DNA from: Escherichia phage grams
Sequence record: NC_049825.1
DNA: 49,530 bases
Direction: 5' to 3' (one strand)
Shown here: in pieces, positions 27,364 to 33,754 of the stretch
How the letters are laid out: each line of letters opens with the position of its first letter
Position numbering within the stretch: position 1 is the stretch's first letter
Made by a program: the position numbers and the translations under genes
Notes under the pieces: model-generated
Told to the model about the DNA's origin: nothing
Databases searched by the model: none
Seen by the model: only the letters and a program-made list of their open reading frames with translations

Positions 27364-30300
27364 ATGGCTGAAAATATGATAACTGGCAGTAAGGGTGGAT
27401 CATCAAAACCTTATGTTCCAAAAGAGATGGAAGATAACCTGATCTCAATCAATAAAATCAAAATCCTTCTTGCAGTTTCCGATGGCGAGTGCGATCCAGA
27501 TTTTACACTTCGCGATCTGTATCTTGATGATGTTCCGGTAATTGCAGACGACGGAACTGTTAACTACCAGGGTGTGAGCGCAGAGTTTCGCCCAGGCACA
27601 CAGACTCAAGATTACATCCAGGGATTTACTGACACATCAAGCGAAGTGACGCTGGCGCGTGATATTACTACGTCAAATCCTTATGTGATTTCCGTAACCA
27701 ACAAAACATTATCTGCTATCAGAATCAAAATGCTAATGCCAACAGGCATTAAGCAAGAGGATAACGGCGATCTTGTCGGCGTTAAGGTTACTTATGCTGT
27801 TGATATGGCTGTTGACGGAGACTCCTACAAAGAAGTATTGCGAGACACTATCGAAGGTAAAACTCGTTCCGGTTACGACAGAAGCAGAAGGATTGACCTT
27901 CCGTCATTCAATGATCGCGTATTACTTAGGGTTAGAAGGATTACGGCAGACAGCGCATCTTCTCGTGTTACTGATCTGATTAAGCTACAAAGTTACGCTG
28001 AGGTTATTGATGCAAAATTCCGTTATCCTCTGACTGGTCTTGTATACGTTGAATTTGACAGTGAGTTGTTTCCTAACCAGATCCCAAATATTTCAATCAA
28101 GAAAAAGTGGAAACTGATTAATGTACCAAGCAACTATGATCCTGTATCTCGAGAGTATAGAGGTTCATGGGATGGAACATTCAAAAAAGCCTGGTCAAAT
28201 AATCCAGCATGGGTGCTTTACGACATCATTACAAATCAGCGTTATGGATTAGATCAGAGAGAGCTTGGTGTACAGGTTGATAAGTGGAGTCTTTACGAAG
28301 CTGCGCAATACTGCGATCAGAAAGTTCCAGACGGAAAAGGAGGCACAGAGCCACGCTATCTATGTGATGTTGTTATCCAGAGTCAGATTGAGGCTTATCA
28401 GCTTATTCGTGACATTTGCTCTATCTTCCGTGGAATGAGCTTTTGGAATGGCGAGAGTTTGTCAATCGTTATTGATAAACCACGCGATCCATCTTACATC
28501 TTCACAAATGATAACGTTGTTGATGGTGATTTCCAGTATACGACGGCAAGCGAAAAGAGCATGTACACGCAGTGCAACGTGACGTTCGACGACGAACAAA
28601 ACATGTATCAACAGGACGTAGAGGGCGTATTCGACACCGAGGCAGCATTGCGCTTTGGATACAATCCTACAAGCATAACCGCGATCGGATGTACACGCAG
28701 GAGTGAGGCTAATCGGCGCGGTCGATGGATACTAAAAACCAACTTGCGCAGCACTACGGTAAACTTTGCTACTGGACTGGAAGGCATGATCCCATCAATA
28801 GGTGATGTGATTGCTATTGCTGACAATTTTCACAGCAGCAACCTTAAATTAAACCTATCAGGGCGCGTGATGGAAGTTTCCGGCTTGCAGGTGTTCGTTC
28901 CGTTTAAGATTGACGCGCGACCAGGTGATTTCATTATCATCAACAAGCCGGACGGAAAGCCAGTTAAGCGCACAATCTCAAAAGTAAGCGATGACGGAAA
29001 AACCATTGAGCTAAACATTGGGTTTGGGTTTGAAGTTAAGCCGGATACAGTTTTTGCAATCGACCGCACTGACATTGCGTTGCAGCAATATGTTGTAACG
29101 AGTATCGGAAAAGGTGATGATGATGATGAATTTACATACTCCATCACGGCTGTTGAATATGACCCTAACAAATACGACGAGATTGATTACGGAGTAAACA
29201 TTGACGACAGGCCAACTTCAATTGTCCAGCCTGACACGATGGCAGCACCGGAAAACGTGCAAATATCCTCATACTCGCGAATTGTCCAGGGTGCAAGCGT
29301 TGAAACAATGGTTGTGTCGTGGGATAAAGTACCTTACGCATCACTGTATGAAATGCAATGGCGAAAAGGTGATGGCAACTGGCTGAATACACCACAGACC
29401 GCAAACAAAGAAATTGAGGTTGAAGGTATTTATTCAGGAAACTACCAGGTAAGGGTTAGATCTGTTTCTGCTTCAGGTTCTACGTCTCCGTGGTCCAGAA
29501 TTGTGACAGCTTCACTGACTGGTAAGGTAGGAGAGCCAGGCGCGCCAGTTAACTTAACCGCATCCGACAATGAAGTTTTTGGCATTCGTGTTAAGTGGGG
29601 GATGCCAGAAGGGAGCGGAGACACGGCATACATTGAGCTTCATCAGTCGCCAGATGGAACGGCTGAAAACTCAAGCCTGCTAACGCTGATCCCGTATCCA
29701 CAATATGAATACTGGCATGGAACTCTTCCGGCTGGTCATGTTGTATGGTATCGGATCAGGAGCGTAGACAGGATCGGCAACGTTTCCGGTTGGACTGATT
29801 TTGTTAGAGGTATGGCTTCAGATGATGTGGAGGCTGTTTTAGGAGATATTCTTGATAAGATTTTTGATACTGAAGCAGGTCAGGATCTGAAAGAGAACGC
29901 CATTGACAGTGCAAACAAGATAAAGGACCAGGCGCAAGCAATCATCCAGAATGCTCTTGCTAATGATGCTGATATTAAGTGGACGCGAGTACAAAACGGA
30001 AAGAGAAAGGCTGAATATGGTCACGCTCTTGAGCTTATAGCCACAGAGACTGAGGCACGAGTTACGCAGATTGAAGAATTGAGGGCGTCAATCGACGAGG
30101 ATATTGTTTCAAGCATAAAGACAGTGCAGGAGGCTATTGCCACAGAATCTGAAACGCGAGCAACTCAAATAAACGCTTTGGATTCAAAATTTACAACTGA
30201 AATTGACGGTGTAAAACGCGATACAGCAGCAAGCATTAATCAGGTGAATCAAACAATTGCCAACGAATCTGAAGCGAGAGCGCAGGCCGTTAACGCTCTT

Positions 30301-30942
30301 GATGCGAAGTTCACAAAGGAGATCGAAGATTTAAACGGAGTTATTAAGACTGAGGTTGAGGCTAACATCTCTGAAGTGAAACAGGCTATCGCTAACGAGA
30401 CAGAGGCAAGGGTGCAGGCTGACCAGGCGTTAACAGCTAAGTTTGGAGACGTTGAATCTGCATTAGCTCAAAAACTTGATTCATGGGCTGGCGTGTCGTC
30501 TGTTGGTGCTAAATACTCAATGAAACTTGGGTTAACTTACAACGGACAGCAGTACAGCGCAGGCATGATCATGCAGCTTTCGCAGAGTTCATCCGGCCTT
30601 ATCTCGCAGATTTTGTTTGATGCGAACAGGTTCGCCATCATGACAAGTTCGACTGGCGGGGTGTATACGCTGCCTTTCGTGGTGGAAAATAACCAGGTAT
30701 TCATTAACAGCCTGTTAGTGAAAAACGGTTCAATCACCAATGCGATGATCGGTAATTATATTCAGTCGAATAACTTTGTTGCTAATCAGCAGGGGTGGAG
30801 GCTGGATAAAAACGGCAGATTTGAGAACTACGGTTCTACATCTGGAGAAGGGGCCATGAAGTTGACCAACGAAACAATAAGTGTACGAGACGCAAACGGG
30901 CGCTTGCGTGTTCAGATTGGTAGGCTTACTGGTACATGGTAA
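27364..30942 (+). CDS. host specificity / central tail fibre protein (lambda J-like)
   Basis: 1192 aa; size, position after K and I homologues, Ala-rich coiled-coil segment and variable C-terminus. Confidence 0.85.
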   Translation: MAENMITGSKGGSSKPYVPKEMEDNLISINKIKILLAVSDGECDPDFTLRDLYLDDVPVIADDGTVNYQGVSAEFRPGTQTQDYIQGFTDTSSEVTLARDITTSNPYVISVTNKTLSAIRIKMLMPTGIKQEDNGDLVGVKVTYAVDMAVDGDSYKEVLRDTIEGKTRSGYDRSRRIDLPSFNDRVLLRVRRITADSASSRVTDLIKLQSYAEVIDAKFRYPLTGLVYVEFDSELFPNQIPNISIKKKWKLINVPSNYDPVSREYRGSWDGTFKKAWSNNPAWVLYDIITNQRYGLDQRELGVQVDKWSLYEAAQYCDQKVPDGKGGTEPRYLCDVVIQSQIEAYQLIRDICSIFRGMSFWNGESLSIVIDKPRDPSYIFTNDNVVDGDFQYTTASEKSMYTQCNVTFDDEQNMYQQDVEGVFDTEAALRFGYNPTSITAIGCTRRSEANRRGRWILKTNLRSTTVNFATGLEGMIPSIGDVIAIADNFHSSNLKLNLSGRVMEVSGLQVFVPFKIDARPGDFIIINKPDGKPVKRTISKVSDDGKTIELNIGFGFEVKPDTVFAIDRTDIALQQYVVTSIGKGDDDDEFTYSITAVEYDPNKYDEIDYGVNIDDRPTSIVQPDTMAAPENVQISSYSRIVQGASVETMVVSWDKVPYASLYEMQWRKGDGNWLNTPQTANKEIEVEGIYSGNYQVRVRSVSASGSTSPWSRIVTASLTGKVGEPGAPVNLTASDNEVFGIRVKWGMPEGSGDTAYIELHQSPDGTAENSSLLTLIPYPQYEYWHGTLPAGHVVWYRIRSVDRIGNVSGWTDFVRGMASDDVEAVLGDILDKIFDTEAGQDLKENAIDSANKIKDQAQAIIQNALANDADIKWTRVQNGKRKAEYGHALELIATETEARVTQIEELRASIDEDIVSSIKTVQEAIATESETRATQINALDSKFTTEIDGVKRDTAASINQVNQTIANESEARAQAVNALDAKFTKEIEDLNGVIKTEVEANISEVKQAIANETEARVQADQALTAKFGDVESALAQKLDSWAGVSSVGAKYSMKLGLTYNGQQYSAGMIMQLSQSSSGLISQILFDANRFAIMTSSTGGVYTLPFVVENNQVFINSLLVKNGSITNAMIGNYIQSNNFVANQQGWRLDKNGRFENYGSTSGEGAMKLTNETISVRDANGRLRVQIGRLTGTW

Positions 30943-30985
30943 AATCAAAGCGGGGCGATTGCCCCGCATCTATGGAGGTTTAATA

Positions 30986-31291
30986 ATGGCTGAATATGGT
31001 GTTTCAACGTGGGATGCTAACGGGAAGTATAACAACTACGGAATCAAGCCAGTTTCCGTTGTTGGTGTCATCAGCCTTGCCGCTGGTCAGACAAGCGGAT
31101 CGTGGAGCTTTAGCATTCCAAGTGGTTTTAAGGTTGGGTATGTTGTTTCACTTGATGAAGGTGCTAGAGGAGTTGGAAGGGAAATAGTAGCATCTGGAAA
31201 TACAATAAGAATTAGTCCTACATCGTCAATCGGTGCAAATAGATATTCTTCTTCAAAGTGCGAGTTAGTTGTTTTTCTTGAGAGGGTTTAA
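30986..31291 (+). CDS. hypothetical protein (101 aa), paralogue a
   Basis: ATG with RBS GGAGG; N-terminus MAEYGVSTWDANGKY similar to next gene. Confidence 0.5.
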   Translation: MAEYGVSTWDANGKYNNYGIKPVSVVGVISLAAGQTSGSWSFSIPSGFKVGYVVSLDEGARGVGREIVASGNTIRISPTSSIGANRYSSSKCELVVFLERV

Positions 31292-31292
31292 A

Positions 31293-31931
31293 ATGGCTGA
31301 GTATGGAGCGATGTTATCATTATCAAATGGGAATCCATTTGTTACACCAAAATCAACGCCATTTTGCTTATATGGCAAGTACACTTATTCATCTTCAGGC
31401 ACTTCTGCCTACCATAGCGCAAGCGCAAATATACCAGTAAATCAATCTTATCCATGCATGGCATTTATAAAAACAACAAACACACAACAGCCAACTGCAT
31501 TAATAGCTTACAGGAACGGTGGTAACATTTATGTAAACGGAGGCAATCCATACGGGCAATCATTTACAATGACTGTTTATATATTTGCTATATTCCCTCA
31601 AACTCTACCAAAATATGGTATGGCTATATGGGATGCAAGCGGAAAGTTGGTTTTAACTAATGAAAGCAGGGTGCTAACAGACCTTGTGACAATTGGCACT
31701 CCTGGATCTTCAGGTGGGACGAATATAGATCAGACATTATCTGGTTCTTATGCCGTTTGCCCATCAAGGCTTGGTGCGGTTATAGGTATGGGTGCGTCTG
31801 ACATATATACATCATGCAGGTATAATGGTTCAGTCACAAGGATAGGTGCAGCAAGGACAACTCCAGGGACGGGTTCTATAACAAATAACGGAAATTCAAT
31901 AATTGCAATAAAGACTGATATTTACGACTAA
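31293..31931 (+). CDS. hypothetical protein (212 aa), paralogue b
   Basis: N-terminus MAEYG and WDASGK block shared with preceding gene. Confidence 0.5.
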   Translation: MAEYGAMLSLSNGNPFVTPKSTPFCLYGKYTYSSSGTSAYHSASANIPVNQSYPCMAFIKTTNTQQPTALIAYRNGGNIYVNGGNPYGQSFTMTVYIFAIFPQTLPKYGMAIWDASGKLVLTNESRVLTDLVTIGTPGSSGGTNIDQTLSGSYAVCPSRLGAVIGMGASDIYTSCRYNGSVTRIGAARTTPGTGSITNNGNSIIAIKTDIYD

Positions 31932-31936
31932 TGAAA

Positions 31937-31962
31937 AAGGGGCTTTCGCCCCTTTGTTTTTA
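31937..31962. terminator. bidirectional intrinsic terminator
   Basis: AAAAAGGGGCTTTCGCCCCTTTGTTTTT: hairpin flanked by A-run and T-run, between convergent genes. Confidence 0.75.
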
Positions 31963-31963
31963 T

Positions 31964-32191
31964 TTACAGACTGCAATCAGCGTTTTTAAAGTTGTCAATG
32001 CTTACCCACTGAAAATTAAACGGATAGCCAGCCTTAACAAGAGTGCGGTCGCCAACTCGTTTTACTTCAAAAATAGCAACTGAATACTGCATACCGCTAT
32101 TTTCATAAATAGCCGTGCATTCACGTTTAGGCATATTTGCGCAACCAGTCAGGGTTACGGCTGCAATCAAAACGGCGATTAACTTTTTCAT
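31964..32191 (-). CDS. outer-membrane lipoprotein, Cor-like superinfection exclusion candidate
   Basis: 75 aa; signal peptide plus lipobox LTGC; small size, location just after the J gene and opposite orientation. Confidence 0.5.
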   Translation of the reverse strand: MKKLIAVLIAAVTLTGCANMPKRECTAIYENSGMQYSVAIFEVKRVGDRTLVKAGYPFNFQWVSIDNFKNADCSL

Positions 32192-32222
32192 GTTGGTGTC
32201 TCCTTCGTTGTTGTTGGTTGCA

Positions 32223-32267
32223 ACTATACACGATCTTACAGCAGGCGTTTAGCAAAAAGTGCTATTC
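32223..32267 (-). promoter_or_regulatory. conserved 22-bp element plus -10 (TATAGT), leftward
   Basis: GAATAGCACTTTTTGCTAAACG-N17-TATAGT on minus strand, upstream of lipoprotein gene. Confidence 0.5.
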
Positions 32268-32692
32268 TGTTCTTTTTGTTCTCCTGCGTTCTCAAATCTG
32301 CGGAGGCGTAAATTTAGAGCAAAAAGTGAGCAATAACAGAGCGCGATATATACAGATAAATATATATACATACATATAAATCAATAAGTTAGTAGTATAT
32401 ATATTAATGTTTGTTCTTTATTGTTATCTGTGTTTTGTGTGATTTTGTGTGCCTGGTGATTTTTCTGTGATTATGCATGTGTCAGTGGTTATGTGTGTCT
32501 ATATATCTATATCCGGCGCAAATTGAGGAACAAGAGAACAAAAAGACAACAAAGATATTTATCAATCACTTACATGTAAGTTTTGTTATCTAAGTTGGCG
32601 AGAACGTTGTTAAAACAGAAAAAACAAAATAACTATTGACTAAACGCATCAAATAGCTACAATGCAGGCATACCAACCAATGAGGGTAAATC
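32268..32692. repeat. AT-rich non-coding region B (diverged paralogue of 3135..3786)
   Basis: Shares AATCAATAAGTTAGT, GGTGATTTTT, TTTTGTTATCT and GTTGTTAAAAC blocks with region A. Confidence 0.6.
32636..32663 (+). promoter_or_regulatory. canonical sigma70 promoter (candidate early promoter)
   Basis: TTGACT-N16-TACAAT about 30 bp upstream of ATG 32693. Confidence 0.6.
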
Positions 32693-33754
32693 ATGAATAA
32701 GTTTATGGCGTACACCAGCGAAGAAATGAGTAATGAGCTTTATCACGATCCAGAAGCGTGGACGGCTGATTATGTTAGTGGATCAAGCCTGGCCGAGATT
32801 TACAGCACATGCCCGGCGGCGTGGAAGTTCAAGCCTCGTGACGATAAGAGCAAGGCGCTAGTTTTTGGTACACAGTCGCATACCAACTTTGAAAGCAATG
32901 AGCTTTTCGAAAAAACCTATCGACGCGCGCCAGCGCCAGAAGACTTTAAGGATCTGATAACTAGCCAAACTGCGCTTGCCGCAAAACTGAAATCATTTGG
33001 CCTGAAAGGTACAACCGGAAAGACTTATCCAGACCTTATCAAAATGATGGTCGATTGCGGAGAAGACCTTAACGTCATGTGGTTAATCGACATGATCGCA
33101 GAAAGCCAGGCCAGGGCCGACGGAGTGCAGTTAATCGACGCTAAAGACTACGACGCTTGCGTTGCAATGCGCCAGGTTCTGGAATCAATACCTGAACATA
33201 ACGCATGTATGAATAGCAAGACAGCACAACGTGAATTATCGTTGTTCGGTGAAATCAACGGCGTAAAAGTCAAAGTGCGATGCGATCACGTTGACGTAAC
33301 AAAGAACGTAACAGCAACTTTGATTGATGGTTACGATGAAAAAGGTCAACCGATTTGCCGCGATATTATTTATCCAGAGGCGATTGTGATCACTGACTAC
33401 AAAACAACAATGAGCGCTAATCCGGTTGAGTTTATGCGCCTGGCTTACAATCACGGCTATTATTTGAAAATGGCGTTGCAATGTGATTTATTCAGGAAAG
33501 CGTATCCAGAAGAAAAGCGACCTATAGTTGTGCGCCTGTTAGCGCAAGAGAAGAAAGAGCCTTATTTGCCGTTGGCTTTCCGCATGAACAGCGAGCAGTT
33601 GAAGATCGGGCGCATTCAGTACATGAGCGTAATTAACCAGTTTGCCATGTGCCAGCAGCATGACGTTTGGCCTTCGTATTCAAACGGTGAGCCGGAGGTT
33701 TGTCTTGATACTCCTGATTGGGTGCGCCGCCAGTTTAAGCAATATCTTATTTAA
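32693..33754 (+). CDS. PD-(D/E)XK exonuclease (recombination exonuclease candidate)
   Basis: 353 aa; RCDHVD and ITDYKT blocks fit a D...(D/E)xK nuclease core; heads an Erf/SSB module. Confidence 0.55.
   Translation: MNKFMAYTSEEMSNELYHDPEAWTADYVSGSSLAEIYSTCPAAWKFKPRDDKSKALVFGTQSHTNFESNELFEKTYRRAPAPEDFKDLITSQTALAAKLKSFGLKGTTGKTYPDLIKMMVDCGEDLNVMWLIDMIAESQARADGVQLIDAKDYDACVAMRQVLESIPEHNACMNSKTAQRELSLFGEINGVKVKVRCDHVDVTKNVTATLIDGYDEKGQPICRDIIYPEAIVITDYKTTMSANPVEFMRLAYNHGYYLKMALQCDLFRKAYPEEKRPIVVRLLAQEKKEPYLPLAFRMNSEQLKIGRIQYMSVINQFAMCQQHDVWPSYSNGEPEVCLDTPDWVRRQFKQYLI

What the first reader, a model, noticed from the sequence alone, without database searches (positions are those of the whole stretch)
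30986..32191. Post-J accessory block: two paralogous genes and a divergently transcribed Cor-like lipoprotein
After the J gene come two genes with similar N-termini (MAEYG..., WDA-GK block), a bidirectional terminator, and on the opposite strand a 75-aa lipoprotein (lipobox LTGC) with its own element-type promoter. Small lipoproteins in this position in T1-like and lambdoid phages inactivate the phage receptor to give superinfection exclusion. The paralogous pair has no obvious function and may be receptor-binding accessories or further exclusion factors.
Basis: partly seen in the sequence, partly recalled or inferred. Interest (0 to 1): 0.5.

Follow-up and report, generated by a model that had tools for sequence, protein, structure and literature searches.

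The report
Phage FhuA-recognition and exclusion gene cassette
This is the already-described three-gene block that T1-like and lambda-like phages carry after their tail-tip gene: two small proteins that most likely form the part of the tail tip that grips the bacterial FhuA receptor, plus the Cor lipoprotein that shuts that receptor in infected cells. It is ordinary, apart from a new structural clue about what the two small proteins do.

Summary
The window is a Hanrivervirus-type T1-like phage, 98-100% identical here to deposited genomes.

The parts, in order after J:
- ORF A: 30986-31291, 101 aa, phrog_557 (T1 Orf32, phi80 gp22).
- ORF B: 31293-31931, 212 aa, phrog_425 (T1 Orf31, phi80 gp23).
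- A two-way terminator: 31936-31955.
- cor: 31964-32191 on the minus strand. It passes the NCBIfam Cor equivalog and is 55% identical to T1 Cor. It has its own copy of a promoter-like box found 10 times in the genome.

The cassette is known in the literature as the "Cor cassette" or FhuA allele of the post-J receptor-binding locus.

The A/B similarity is only a short hairpin motif plus weak domain-level similarity.

New here:
- A and B have no signal peptide or membrane segment.
- They sit in the late tail operon.
- They co-occur in about 345 phage genomes, including 111 Klebsiella phages without Cor.
- They travel with a conserved 60-residue J tail.

Best reading: A and B are the tail-tip FhuA binder, and Cor blocks FhuA from the periplasm.

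The parts
30760..30942 (+). 3' end of gene J (J is 27364-30942, 1192 aa), encoding the last ~60 residues (...GWRLDKNGRFENYGSTSGEGAMKLTNETISVRDANGRLRVQIGRLTGTW). This is the proposed docking tail for the downstream proteins and the left boundary of the mobile module.
   Evidence: J matches PF09327, PF24801, PF13550 and phrog_31. The last 60 aa are 68-82% identical in all A/B-carrying phages tested. That includes lambdoid phi80 and an HK75-like phage at 70-72%, although the preceding 240 aa of J are only 30% identical there. In LptD-type phage Rtp the last 60 aa are 40% identical and the final ~40 residues are unrelated.
30950..30967 (.). GC-rich hairpin GCGGGGCGATTGCCCCGC between J and ORF A.
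   Evidence: -16.5 kcal/mol on both strands. No U-run follows on the plus strand, but one does on the minus strand. The equivalent site in T1 is annotated as a rho-independent terminator. The hairpin is absent from lambdoid versions, where J and A abut.
30986..31291 (+). ORF A, 101 aa: a small all-beta protein (phrog_557; T1 Orf32, phi80/N15 gp22). Proposed adaptor or first module of the tail-tip receptor binder.
31293..31931 (+). ORF B, 212 aa: a protein of two beta-sandwich domains (phrog_425; T1 Orf31, phi80/N15 gp23). Proposed FhuA-binding receptor-binding protein.
31936..31955 (.). Bidirectional intrinsic terminator shared by the convergent A-B and cor transcripts.
   Evidence: 8-bp stem, -14 kcal/mol on each strand, U-tract on each side. 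It lies 4 nt after the stop of B and 8 nt after the stop of cor.
31964..32191 (-). cor, 75 aa: outer-membrane lipoprotein for superinfection exclusion. Signal peptide with lipobox LTG|C17, Ala at +2, Cys25 and Cys73.
   Evidence: NF047972 68.4 bits, cut-off 31. phrog_1119 E 8.6e-29. 55% identical to T1 Cor and 36% to phi80 Cor. Full-length alignment to Llp 8a60_B, E 0.027, with the cysteines aligned.
32223..32265 (-). Promoter-like element for cor: box ATAGCACTTTTTGCTAAA (32265-32248), a 19-nt spacer, then a -10-like TATAGT (32228-32223). The ribosome-binding site AAGGAG lies at 32205-32200.
   Evidence: It belongs to a roughly 10-copy family in the window: 12 matches against 2.2 expected, 0 of 100 shuffles. 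It is conserved upstream of cor in PGN590, BabyEgg and SRT8. The generic sigma-70 scan did not call it, because the spacing between TTGCTA and the -10 is about 21 nt.

Best explanation
The block is a portable module for recognising and then closing the receptor FhuA.

Shown:
- Its left edge lies inside the 3' end of J.
- ORF A and ORF B follow J on the same strand as a translationally coupled pair.
- cor is a separate transcription unit that converges on a shared terminator.

Inferred:
- A and B are cytoplasmic, soluble, all-beta proteins made late together with the tail proteins.
- They attach to the conserved C-terminal tail of the J trimer at the end of the central fibre.
- ORF B is the receptor-binding protein that contacts the extracellular face of FhuA. 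It plays the role that the Oekolampad/Rtp44 protein plays for LptD and pb5 plays for T5.
- ORF A is an adaptor, or first module, between J and B.
- Each module begins with the same hairpin motif (YG-h-x-h-W/F-D/N-x-x-G). The motif probably docks onto the preceding module, giving the chain J tail -> A -> B N-domain -> B C-domain.

Cor is made from its own promoter, of the same class that precedes many small genes that are probably early. It is exported and lipidated at Cys17, then sorted to the inner leaflet of the outer membrane because residue +2 is Ala rather than Asp. By homology with T1/phi80 Cor and with T5 Llp, it binds the periplasmic face and plug of FhuA. That closes the extracellular loops, so that further FhuA-dependent phages, and progeny meeting cell debris, cannot adsorb.
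For: Identity and synteny:
- the block is 98.8% identical to Hanrivervirus genomes.
- the gene order matches T1 Orf32-Orf31-cor and phi80 gp22-gp23-cor.
- J, A and B are contiguous in 84 of 84 fetched loci, and Cor is present in 82 of 84.

Link to FhuA:
- The block is 94.8% identical to that of JLBYU41, which is experimentally FhuA-dependent (PMC10373560).
- T1, phi80 and the mEp phages carry the cassette.
- Literature: a locus allele matched to FhuA (PMC8594841); a Cor cassette present in all BASEL phages that use FhuA (PMC13164509); AlphaFold3 support for a locus-encoded FhuA binder (bioRxiv 10.64898/2026.04.02.716166).

Role in receptor binding:
- the non-significant hhalign alignments to Rtp44 are collinear with that match, including the motif IFPQTLPKYGMAIWD / IFQQVAPTPGPGINIFN.

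Not membrane or exclusion proteins:
- maximum 19-residue hydropathy is 1.05 for A and 0.93 for B, and the N-termini are acidic.
- A is in 343 phage records, B in 348 and Cor in 233. For Klebsiella phages the counts are 111, 111 and 2.

Docking on J:
- the J tail is conserved only among phages that carry A and B, across otherwise diverged J proteins.
- the N-terminal 20 residues of A and B have low pLDDT, whereas the internal copy of the motif in B is confidently packed.
- distant relatives keep the MAxYG start, the internal YG-x-x-x-F/W-D/N-x-x-G motif and the J-A-B coupling.
- the weakest family members match only profile positions 1-128, so the C-domain is the variable part.

Cor:
-.
- The mechanism is taken from PMC9586334 (Llp-FhuA crystal structure; the Cor family shares the disulphide) and PMC13164509 (AlphaFold3 Cor-FhuA model, ipTM 0.84, periplasmic face).

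Separate expression:
-.
Against: - No experiment in the literature I could reach shows A or B in virions or bound to FhuA. The T1 proteome paper is not held.
- The T1 tail-tip cryo-EM structure did not resolve J beyond residue 820 (PMC11945409).
- No solved structure has detectable sequence similarity to A or B.
- Sequence homology between ORF B and the DUF6453 (Rtp44) family is not significant: hhalign probability 3.8% and no Pfam hit. The link rests on one fold comparison of a predicted model.
- The authors of PMC13164509 found no Foldseek or HHpred hits and proposed an exclusion-related role instead.
- PMC10373560 treats J itself as the receptor-binding protein.
- Which of A and B contacts FhuA, their copy number and the hairpin-docking idea are all inference. 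The hairpin pattern was defined after seeing the sequences.
- The timing class of the cor promoter is inferred only from the small genes that follow the other copies.
Confidence: 0.7

Rival explanations
1. A and B are envelope-associated partners of Cor. They would help inactivate FhuA or exclude other phages, and would not be virion parts. [quoted passage not shown]
For: Tight linkage with cor in Escherichia phages: 176 records for each of A, B and Cor, and Cor present in 82 of 84 fetched loci. The PHROG names point the same way.
Against: - There is no signal peptide, lipobox or hydrophobic segment.
- The genes are transcribed with the late tail genes and are coupled to J in lambdoid phages, whereas cor has its own promoter on the other strand.
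- 111 Klebsiella phage records have A and B but only 2 have Cor. In phage Sushi there is no room for cor.
- ORF B has the fold of a receptor-binding protein.
- The PHROG labels probably come from the position of lambda lom. There is no Ail/Lom Pfam hit.
Confidence: 0.07
2. A and/or B are assembly chaperones for the end of the J fibre, as Tfa or gp38-type proteins are for side fibres. The conserved C-terminal tail of J would be the real FhuA-binding surface.
For: Small genes directly after fibre genes are often chaperones. The J tail co-varies with the locus. PMC10373560 analyses J as the receptor-binding protein. In TolC- and LamB-type relatives J itself carries the specificity (PMC8594841).
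Against: - The best structural neighbour of ORF B is a protein solved in direct contact with its receptor, not a chaperone.
- The J tail that co-varies with the locus is only about 45-60 residues long.
- The B family keeps its N-terminal half and varies its C-terminal domain, as receptor-binding proteins do.
For ORF A alone this rival stays open.
Confidence: 0.13
3. A and B are non-essential decorations or lectin-like adhesins of the tail tip. They would bind a glycan such as the LPS core for reversible adsorption, while another component binds FhuA.
Against: - The cassette tracks the protein receptor FhuA across unrelated phage lineages (PMC8594841, PMC13164509).
Confidence: 0.05

Closest known systems
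T1 Orf32-Orf31-Cor, phi80/N15 gp22-gp23-Cor: the 'Cor cassette', i.e. the FhuA allele of the receptor-binding locus downstream of gpJ (Wietzorrek 2006 as cited in PMC13164509; PMC8594841)
   Same: The gene order after J, the protein families (phrog_557, phrog_425, phrog_1119), the protein sizes and the shared terminator are the same. In T1-like phages cor is also on the opposite strand. The block is 95-100% identical to deposited Hanrivervirus genomes.
   Different: Nothing essential differs. ORF B here is a short variant, 212 aa against about 224, lacking a roughly 12-residue loop near residue 165. In lambdoid phages cor is co-directional and J, A and B abut without the GC hairpin.
Rtp44 / Oekolampad RBP (Pfam DUF6453, PF20051) with the exclusion lipoprotein Rtp45: the LptD allele of the same locus (bioRxiv 10.1101/2025.07.07.663478; PDB 9rpt)
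   Same: - The genomic slot directly after J is the same.
- A receptor binder is paired with a small periplasmic lipoprotein that blocks the same receptor.
- Rtp44 also starts MAxGIYIDLNDG, and it has the internal motif copies.
- A plus B total 313 aa, against 311 aa for Rtp44.
   Different: - The receptor is different (LptD).
- It is one 311-aa gene rather than two genes.
- It is transcribed on the strand opposite to J, in an operon with its lipoprotein.
- There is no significant sequence similarity: hhalign probability 0.7-3.8% and no PF20051 hit.
- The J tail is different.
T5 pb5 with Llp (PDB 8a8c / 8a60; PMC9586334)
   Same: It has the same logic and the same receptor. A dedicated FhuA-binding protein sits non-covalently on the central fibre, and an adjacent small lipoprotein binds FhuA from the periplasm. 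Cor aligns with Llp over its full length, including the Cys pair.
   Different: pb5 is a single protein of about 640 aa that was not recovered in any sequence or fold search with A or B. Cor and Llp are only about 20% identical (E 0.027). The T5 locus lies next to the terminase genes, not after J.
Lambda J C-terminal domain with lom
   Same: The genes occupy the position immediately downstream of J. The J core is homologous.
   Different: In lambda, J itself binds LamB. lom is a secreted 8-stranded Ail/Lom barrel. A and B have no signal peptide and no Ail/Lom match.

Membership tests
Cor / Llp superinfection-exclusion lipoproteins | Sequence membership in the Cor family | tested here: met
   NCBIfam NF047972 (equivalog) 68.4 bits against a cut-off of 31. 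phrog_1119 E 8.6e-29. 55% identical to T1 Cor and 36% to phi80 Cor.
Cor / Llp superinfection-exclusion lipoproteins | Signal peptide with lipobox, and a small mature protein of about 60 aa sorted to the outer membrane | tested here: met
   MKKLIAVLIAAVTLTG|C17 and a PF08139 lipid-attachment-site match. The mature protein is 59 aa. Residue +2 is Ala, so there is no Asp inner-membrane retention signal (established Lol sorting rule).
Cor / Llp superinfection-exclusion lipoproteins | Conserved intramolecular disulphide pair (Cys11-Cys58 in Llp) | tested here: met
   Cys25 and Cys73 (mature positions 9 and 57) are conserved in all Cor sequences aligned. Cys25 aligns with the first of the corresponding Llp cysteines in 8a60_B; the alignment stops at query residue 70, short of Cys73. 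Formation of the bond itself was not tested.
Cor / Llp superinfection-exclusion lipoproteins | Blocks adsorption of FhuA-dependent phages and FhuA transport | not testable with these tools
   Requires expressing cor in trans and measuring plating, adsorption and ferrichrome uptake.
FhuA allele of the post-J receptor-binding locus (phrog_557 + phrog_425) | Two genes of these families immediately downstream of a J homologue, on the same strand | tested here: met
   phrog_557 E 5.4e-30 and phrog_425 E 6.3e-68. J, A and B are contiguous in 84 of 84 related loci.
FhuA allele of the post-J receptor-binding locus (phrog_557 + phrog_425) | The phage depends on FhuA | not testable with these tools
   Indirect only. 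The block is 94.8% identical to that of FhuA-dependent JLBYU41 (PMC10373560), and homologues occur in T1, phi80 and the mEp phages.
FhuA allele of the post-J receptor-binding locus (phrog_557 + phrog_425) | The products are virion tail-tip components that bind the receptor | not testable with these tools
   The only support is fold similarity to a solved receptor-binding protein. No proteomic or binding data were accessible.
DUF6453 (PF20051) LptD-binding RBPs (Rtp44 / RBP_Oeko) | Sequence match to PF20051 or to the family profile | tested here: not met
   No Pfam hit at E <= 0.1. hhalign of A1 against A3 gives probability 3.8%, E 0.011. A2 against A3 gives probability 0.8%.
DUF6453 (PF20051) LptD-binding RBPs (Rtp44 / RBP_Oeko) | Shared three-dimensional fold | tested here: met
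Ail/Lom-type outer-membrane proteins (the PHROG label 'outer membrane protein') | Signal peptide and a beta-barrel of the Ail/Lom family | tested here: not met
   No Pfam or NCBIfam hit. No signal peptide or hydrophobic stretch. The model is a soluble beta-sandwich.

The most novel reading that the evidence does not exclude
The receptor-binding proteins at the post-J locus have been described as unrelated families for FhuA, LptD and other receptors. They may instead be diverged versions of one ancestral chain of about 100-residue beta-sandwich modules. Each module would begin with a docking hairpin (YG-h-x-h-W/F-D/N-x-x-G).

On this reading the FhuA version is the same three-module protein as Rtp44/RBP_Oeko, split into two genes. 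ORF A would be module 1, the tail-proximal adaptor. ORF B would be modules 2 and 3, with module 3 as the exchangeable receptor-contacting domain. Specificity could then be re-engineered module by module across receptors.
Probability: 0.3. Interest if true: 0.5.

Novelty: already known. Interest (0 to 1): 0.27.

Why it matters
The cassette decides which outer-membrane protein this large group of phages uses, and it protects infected cells and debris from wasteful re-adsorption. The group spans T1-like, Dhillonvirus, Webervirus and lambdoid phages.

Nobody has yet shown experimentally what T1 Orf31/Orf32-type proteins do. T1 is a classic model phage and a notorious laboratory contaminant.

The structural link found here, to a receptor-binding protein solved on its receptor, gives a concrete and testable assignment: B binds FhuA, A is the adaptor, and the J tail is the socket. 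[quoted passage not shown] As a discovery in this particular window it is ordinary.

Tried and rejected
1. Pfam, NCBIfam and PDB sequence searches with A and B, as single sequences and as profiles, found nothing.

2. Lom/Ail-type or other membrane protein. Rejected: no signal peptide or transmembrane segment and no family hit.

3. Sequence-level homology of A or B to Rtp44/DUF6453. Not significant, with single sequence or with a 19-sequence profile. A profile search of 1.84 billion representatives with the B family recovered no protein of about 311 aa of DUF6453 type.

4. All-against-all hhalign of six putative modules. Only A~Bn, A~Bc and Bn~Rtp44 N-terminus rose above noise. The three-module 'split RBP' idea therefore stays a hypothesis. 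No natural A-B fusion was seen. The two long hits are J-A or J-B fusions in degraded prophages.

5. A resemblance between the J tail (GWRLDKNGRFENYG, SVRDANGRLRV) and the A/B hairpin motif. J does not fit the motif register, so I dropped it.

6. The generic sigma-70 scan found no promoter for cor. The promoter was found only through the phage-specific repeated box.

7. An Rfam scan of 30800-32750 found nothing meaningful.

8. The T1 proteome paper and the Rtp genome paper could not be read. A literature search for the promoter box string found nothing relevant.

9. BabyEgg at first looked like a case of 'B without A'. That is an annotation error: ORF A is present there.
Full report
**What the window is.**
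The 1.4 kb around the finding is 98.8% identical to Escherichia phage vB_Eco-B1.3 and 98.6% to phage aaroes (Drexlerviridae, Tempevirinae, Hanrivervirus). It is 94-96% identical to many other T1-like phages. In aaroes the four genes are annotated tail protein, 'outer membrane protein', 'membrane associated protein' and 'Cor superinfection exclusion protein'. The downstream genes are the exonuclease VIII / Erf / SSB recombination block, as in T1.

**Checking the observation.**
- J is 27364-30942 (1192 aa) and matches PF24801, PF13550, PF09327 and phrog_31.
- A GC hairpin lies at 30950-30967.
- ORF A is 30986-31291 (101 aa, MAEYGVSTWDANGKY...).
- ORF B is 31293-31931 (212 aa, MAEYGAMLSLSNGN...). 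It starts one base after the stop of A.
- The list of mechanical ORFs offers longer GTG/TTG starts. The conserved MA-x-YG N-termini of about 100 homologue clusters each fix the ATG starts.
- The terminator at 31936-31955 folds at -14 kcal/mol on both strands, with a U-run on both sides.
- cor is 31964-32191 on the minus strand, with lipobox LTGC.
- The generic sigma-70 scan finds no promoter for cor.
- Aligning the region upstream of cor from relatives shows two conserved blocks, GCACTTTTTGCYAA and TGTATAGT/TGTATAAT, kept even in the distant phage SRT8.
- The first block belongs to a box, aATAGCACTTTTTGTTAAAA, followed about 19 nt later by CATAAT/TATAGT. The box occurs 10 times in the window on both strands. 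CACTTTTTGCT with at most 1 mismatch gives 12 matches against 2.2 expected, and 0 of 100 shuffles reach that.
- Each copy precedes a small ORF.

**How alike A and B are.**
BLASTP finds only the 14-residue motif (E 6e-4), and whole-profile comparison aligns only 18 columns (probability 63%). I then split the families into domains:
- A aligns collinearly with the N-domain of B over 76 columns (E 6.5e-4, probability 28%).
- A aligns with the start of the C-domain of B over 13 columns (E 3.7e-5, probability 71%).

I conclude that they are probably distant relatives built from one kind of module. 'Paralogues' overstates what the sequences show.

**What Cor is.**
- It passes the NCBIfam equivalog for the phage exclusion lipoprotein Cor (68.4 bits against 31).
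- It matches phrog_1119 (E 8.6e-29).
- It is 55% identical to T1 Cor and 36% to phi80 Cor.
- phmmer aligns residues 1-70 of its 75 with T5 Llp in the FhuA-Llp crystal structure 8a60 (E 0.027), including the lipobox and the first disulphide cysteine. PMC9586334 states that Llp and the Cor family share about 20% identity 'including the intramolecular disulphide bond'.
- Llp binds the periplasmic face and plug of FhuA and folds loops EL7 and EL8 inward. PMC13164509 reports an AlphaFold3 Cor-FhuA model at the same site.

The function is therefore inferred by homology, with good support.

**What A and B are.**
The literature already treats this position as the receptor-specificity locus.
- Maffei et al. 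matched allelic variants of the locus downstream of gpJ to FhuA, BtuB, YncD and LptD. They proposed dedicated receptor-binding proteins attached non-covalently to J, together with cognate exclusion proteins (PMC8594841).
- A 2026 preprint confirms this with 1,050 genetic screens and AlphaFold3 models, and notes that the C-terminal tip of J co-varies with the locus (10.64898/2026.04.02.716166).
- For the LptD allele this is experimentally proven: cryo-EM of RBP_Oeko on LptDE and of Rtp45 on LptDE (10.1101/2025.07.07.663478).
- For the FhuA allele there is no experiment. PMC13164509 found no Foldseek or HHpred hit for the two proteins and guessed that they assist exclusion.

My results bear on this in five ways.

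   - The sequence comparisons to the Rtp44/DUF6453 family are not significant.
   - They are nevertheless collinear with the fold match. They pair the most conserved stretch of B (IFPQTLPKYGMAIWDASGK) with IFQQVAPTPGPGINIFNSNNQ of Rtp44.
2. *Localisation.* Neither protein has a signal peptide or a hydrophobic segment. The database labels 'outer membrane' and 'membrane associated' are unsupported.
3. *Expression.* A and B lie on the strand of the late tail operon.
   - In lambdoid phages the J stop, the A start, the A stop and the B start overlap or abut.
   - cor has its own promoter.
   - In the virulent phages (T1-like, Dhillonvirus) cor sits on the opposite strand.
4. *Distribution.* A occurs in 343 phage records, B in 348 and Cor in 233. 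The counts are equal for Escherichia (176 each). For Klebsiella phages they are 111, 111 and 2. In Klebsiella phage Sushi the gene after B is a convergent tail-fibre gene, leaving no room for cor.
   - A and B are therefore an obligate pair that does not need Cor.
   - That fits a structural role and argues against an exclusion role.
5. *Link to J.* The last 60 residues of J are 68-82% identical in every A/B carrier examined.
   - That includes phi80 and an HK75-like prophage, whose J is otherwise 30-40% identical.
   - In Rtp the last 40 residues are unrelated.
   - The mobile unit therefore starts inside J at about nucleotide 30760.

**Architecture and proposed mechanism.**
- In ORF A it is at the N-terminus, where G5, G13 and N16-G19 are invariant.
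- In ORF B it is at the N-terminus and again at the start of the C-domain, where G109 and W113 are invariant.
- Distant B-like proteins keep both copies, for example MAIYGAEITSPDGK ... SAYGVQLFDAAGN.
- Rtp44 starts MAQGIYIDLNDGR and has similar copies near residues 116 and 210. That pattern was written after seeing the sequences, so its enrichment is not a test.

The N-terminal copies have low model confidence in A and B, whereas the internal copy in B is packed confidently.

I therefore propose, as inference, that each hairpin docks on the preceding module: J tail -> A -> B N-domain -> B C-domain. The C-domain would contact FhuA.

The weakest members of the B family match only profile positions 1-128. 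The main indel hotspot is at residues 161-170. Both observations fit a variable receptor-contacting C-domain.

A plus B total 313 aa and Rtp44 is 311 aa. That suggests the FhuA binder may be a split version of a three-module protein, but I could not test this.

**Rivals.**
- An exclusion-accessory role is unlikely, for reasons 2-4 above.
- A chaperone role cannot be excluded for ORF A.
- A lectin-like glycan adhesin role rests on generic beta-sandwich scores only.

**Comparison with what is known, and novelty.**
This is the same cassette as T1 Orf32-Orf31-Cor and phi80/N15 gp22-gp23-Cor. It is nearly identical to deposited genomes, and it has been discussed in at least three papers as FhuA-associated, so it is already known.

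- the fold link to the solved LptD binder;
- the negative evidence against a membrane or exclusion role;
- the Cor-less Klebsiella distribution;
- the J-tail boundary;
- the identification of the cor promoter as a member of a phage-wide box.

**Verdict.**
Interest is low to moderate.

Noticed in passing
window 386(-), 2241(-), 3118(-), 6544(+), 9212(+), 21431(-), 32251(-), 42799(+), 43840(+), 47073(-): A roughly 10-copy promoter-like element: aATAGCACTTTTTGTTAAAA, then about 19 nt that often form an inverted repeat, then CATAAT/TATAGT. Most copies precede a small ORF. The TTGTTA-to--10 spacing of about 22 nt is not canonical sigma-70 geometry. That suggests an activator- or factor-dependent promoter class, or one with an UP-like upstream box. 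A search of the literature for the string found nothing.
   Followed up: partly
L090 5761-6051 (prophage in GCA_025527035.1, contig JAODIL010000081): A distant relative has the same coupled J / A-like (85 aa) / B-like (222 aa) arrangement. In place of cor it encodes a 96-aa secreted protein with a TonB C-terminal domain (PF03544, E 1.2e-12). This could be a different exclusion strategy, with a periplasmic TonB_C decoy acting on the TonB box of a TonB-dependent receptor.
   Followed up: partly
window 32192-32692: A 500-bp AT-rich non-coding region lies between cor and the exonuclease VIII gene. It contains a second, degenerate copy of the promoter box (32318-32328, minus strand). It also holds several direct and inverted repeats, for example 25-nt arms at 32355-32379 and 32489-32513, and a good sigma-70-like promoter for the rightward recombination genes (TTGACT-16-TACAAT, 32636-32663).
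   Followed up: partly
window 30950-30967: The GC hairpin between J and ORF A has no U-run on the coding strand but does have one on the minus strand. T1 annotates the equivalent site as a rho-independent terminator. It might attenuate read-through from J, stabilise the J message, or stop antisense transcription. It is absent in lambdoid versions, where J and A abut.
   Followed up: partly
phage collection: Klebsiella Webervirus records (e.g. L004, phage Sushi): 111 Klebsiella phage records carry the A+B pair, at about 32% and 42% identity, but only 2 have a detectable Cor. Their protein receptor and their means of exclusion, if any, are unclear.
   Followed up: partly
phage collection: MG065636 and related records ('Campylobacter phage A16a, A15b, A14a...'): Eighteen records labelled Campylobacter jejuni phages are 94-95% identical to this coliphage block. 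They are probably mislabelled or contaminating T1-like coliphages.
   Followed up: no
L088 1490-1798 (phage BabyEgg, PP925846): The deposited annotation calls a 66-aa ORF in another frame and misses the intact ORF A homologue (MAEYGISTWDANGKYNNYG...). The reports of 'B and Cor without the outer membrane protein' in some Tempevirinae may be annotation artefacts of this kind.
   Followed up: yes
L087 2498-3058 (Shigella phage Sd1): An extra 186-aa gene of unknown function sits between the B homologue and cor in this Rogunavirinae phage.
   Followed up: no
BFVD hits to the ORF B model: Two-domain proteins of 220-265 aa with the same predicted fold (Foldseek E 1e-7 to 1e-4, TM 0.55-0.61) occur in Acinetobacter, Xanthomonas (phiL7 p23), Pectobacterium, Proteus and Pseudomonas phages. 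All are uncharacterised. This small receptor-binding-protein fold may be widespread.
   Followed up: no
P0215 (139 aa) and P0296 (337 aa): In-frame fusions of a J C-terminus to ORF A, and of J to ORF B residues 52-224, occur in bacterial contigs. They are probably degraded prophages rather than natural fusion proteins.
   Followed up: partly
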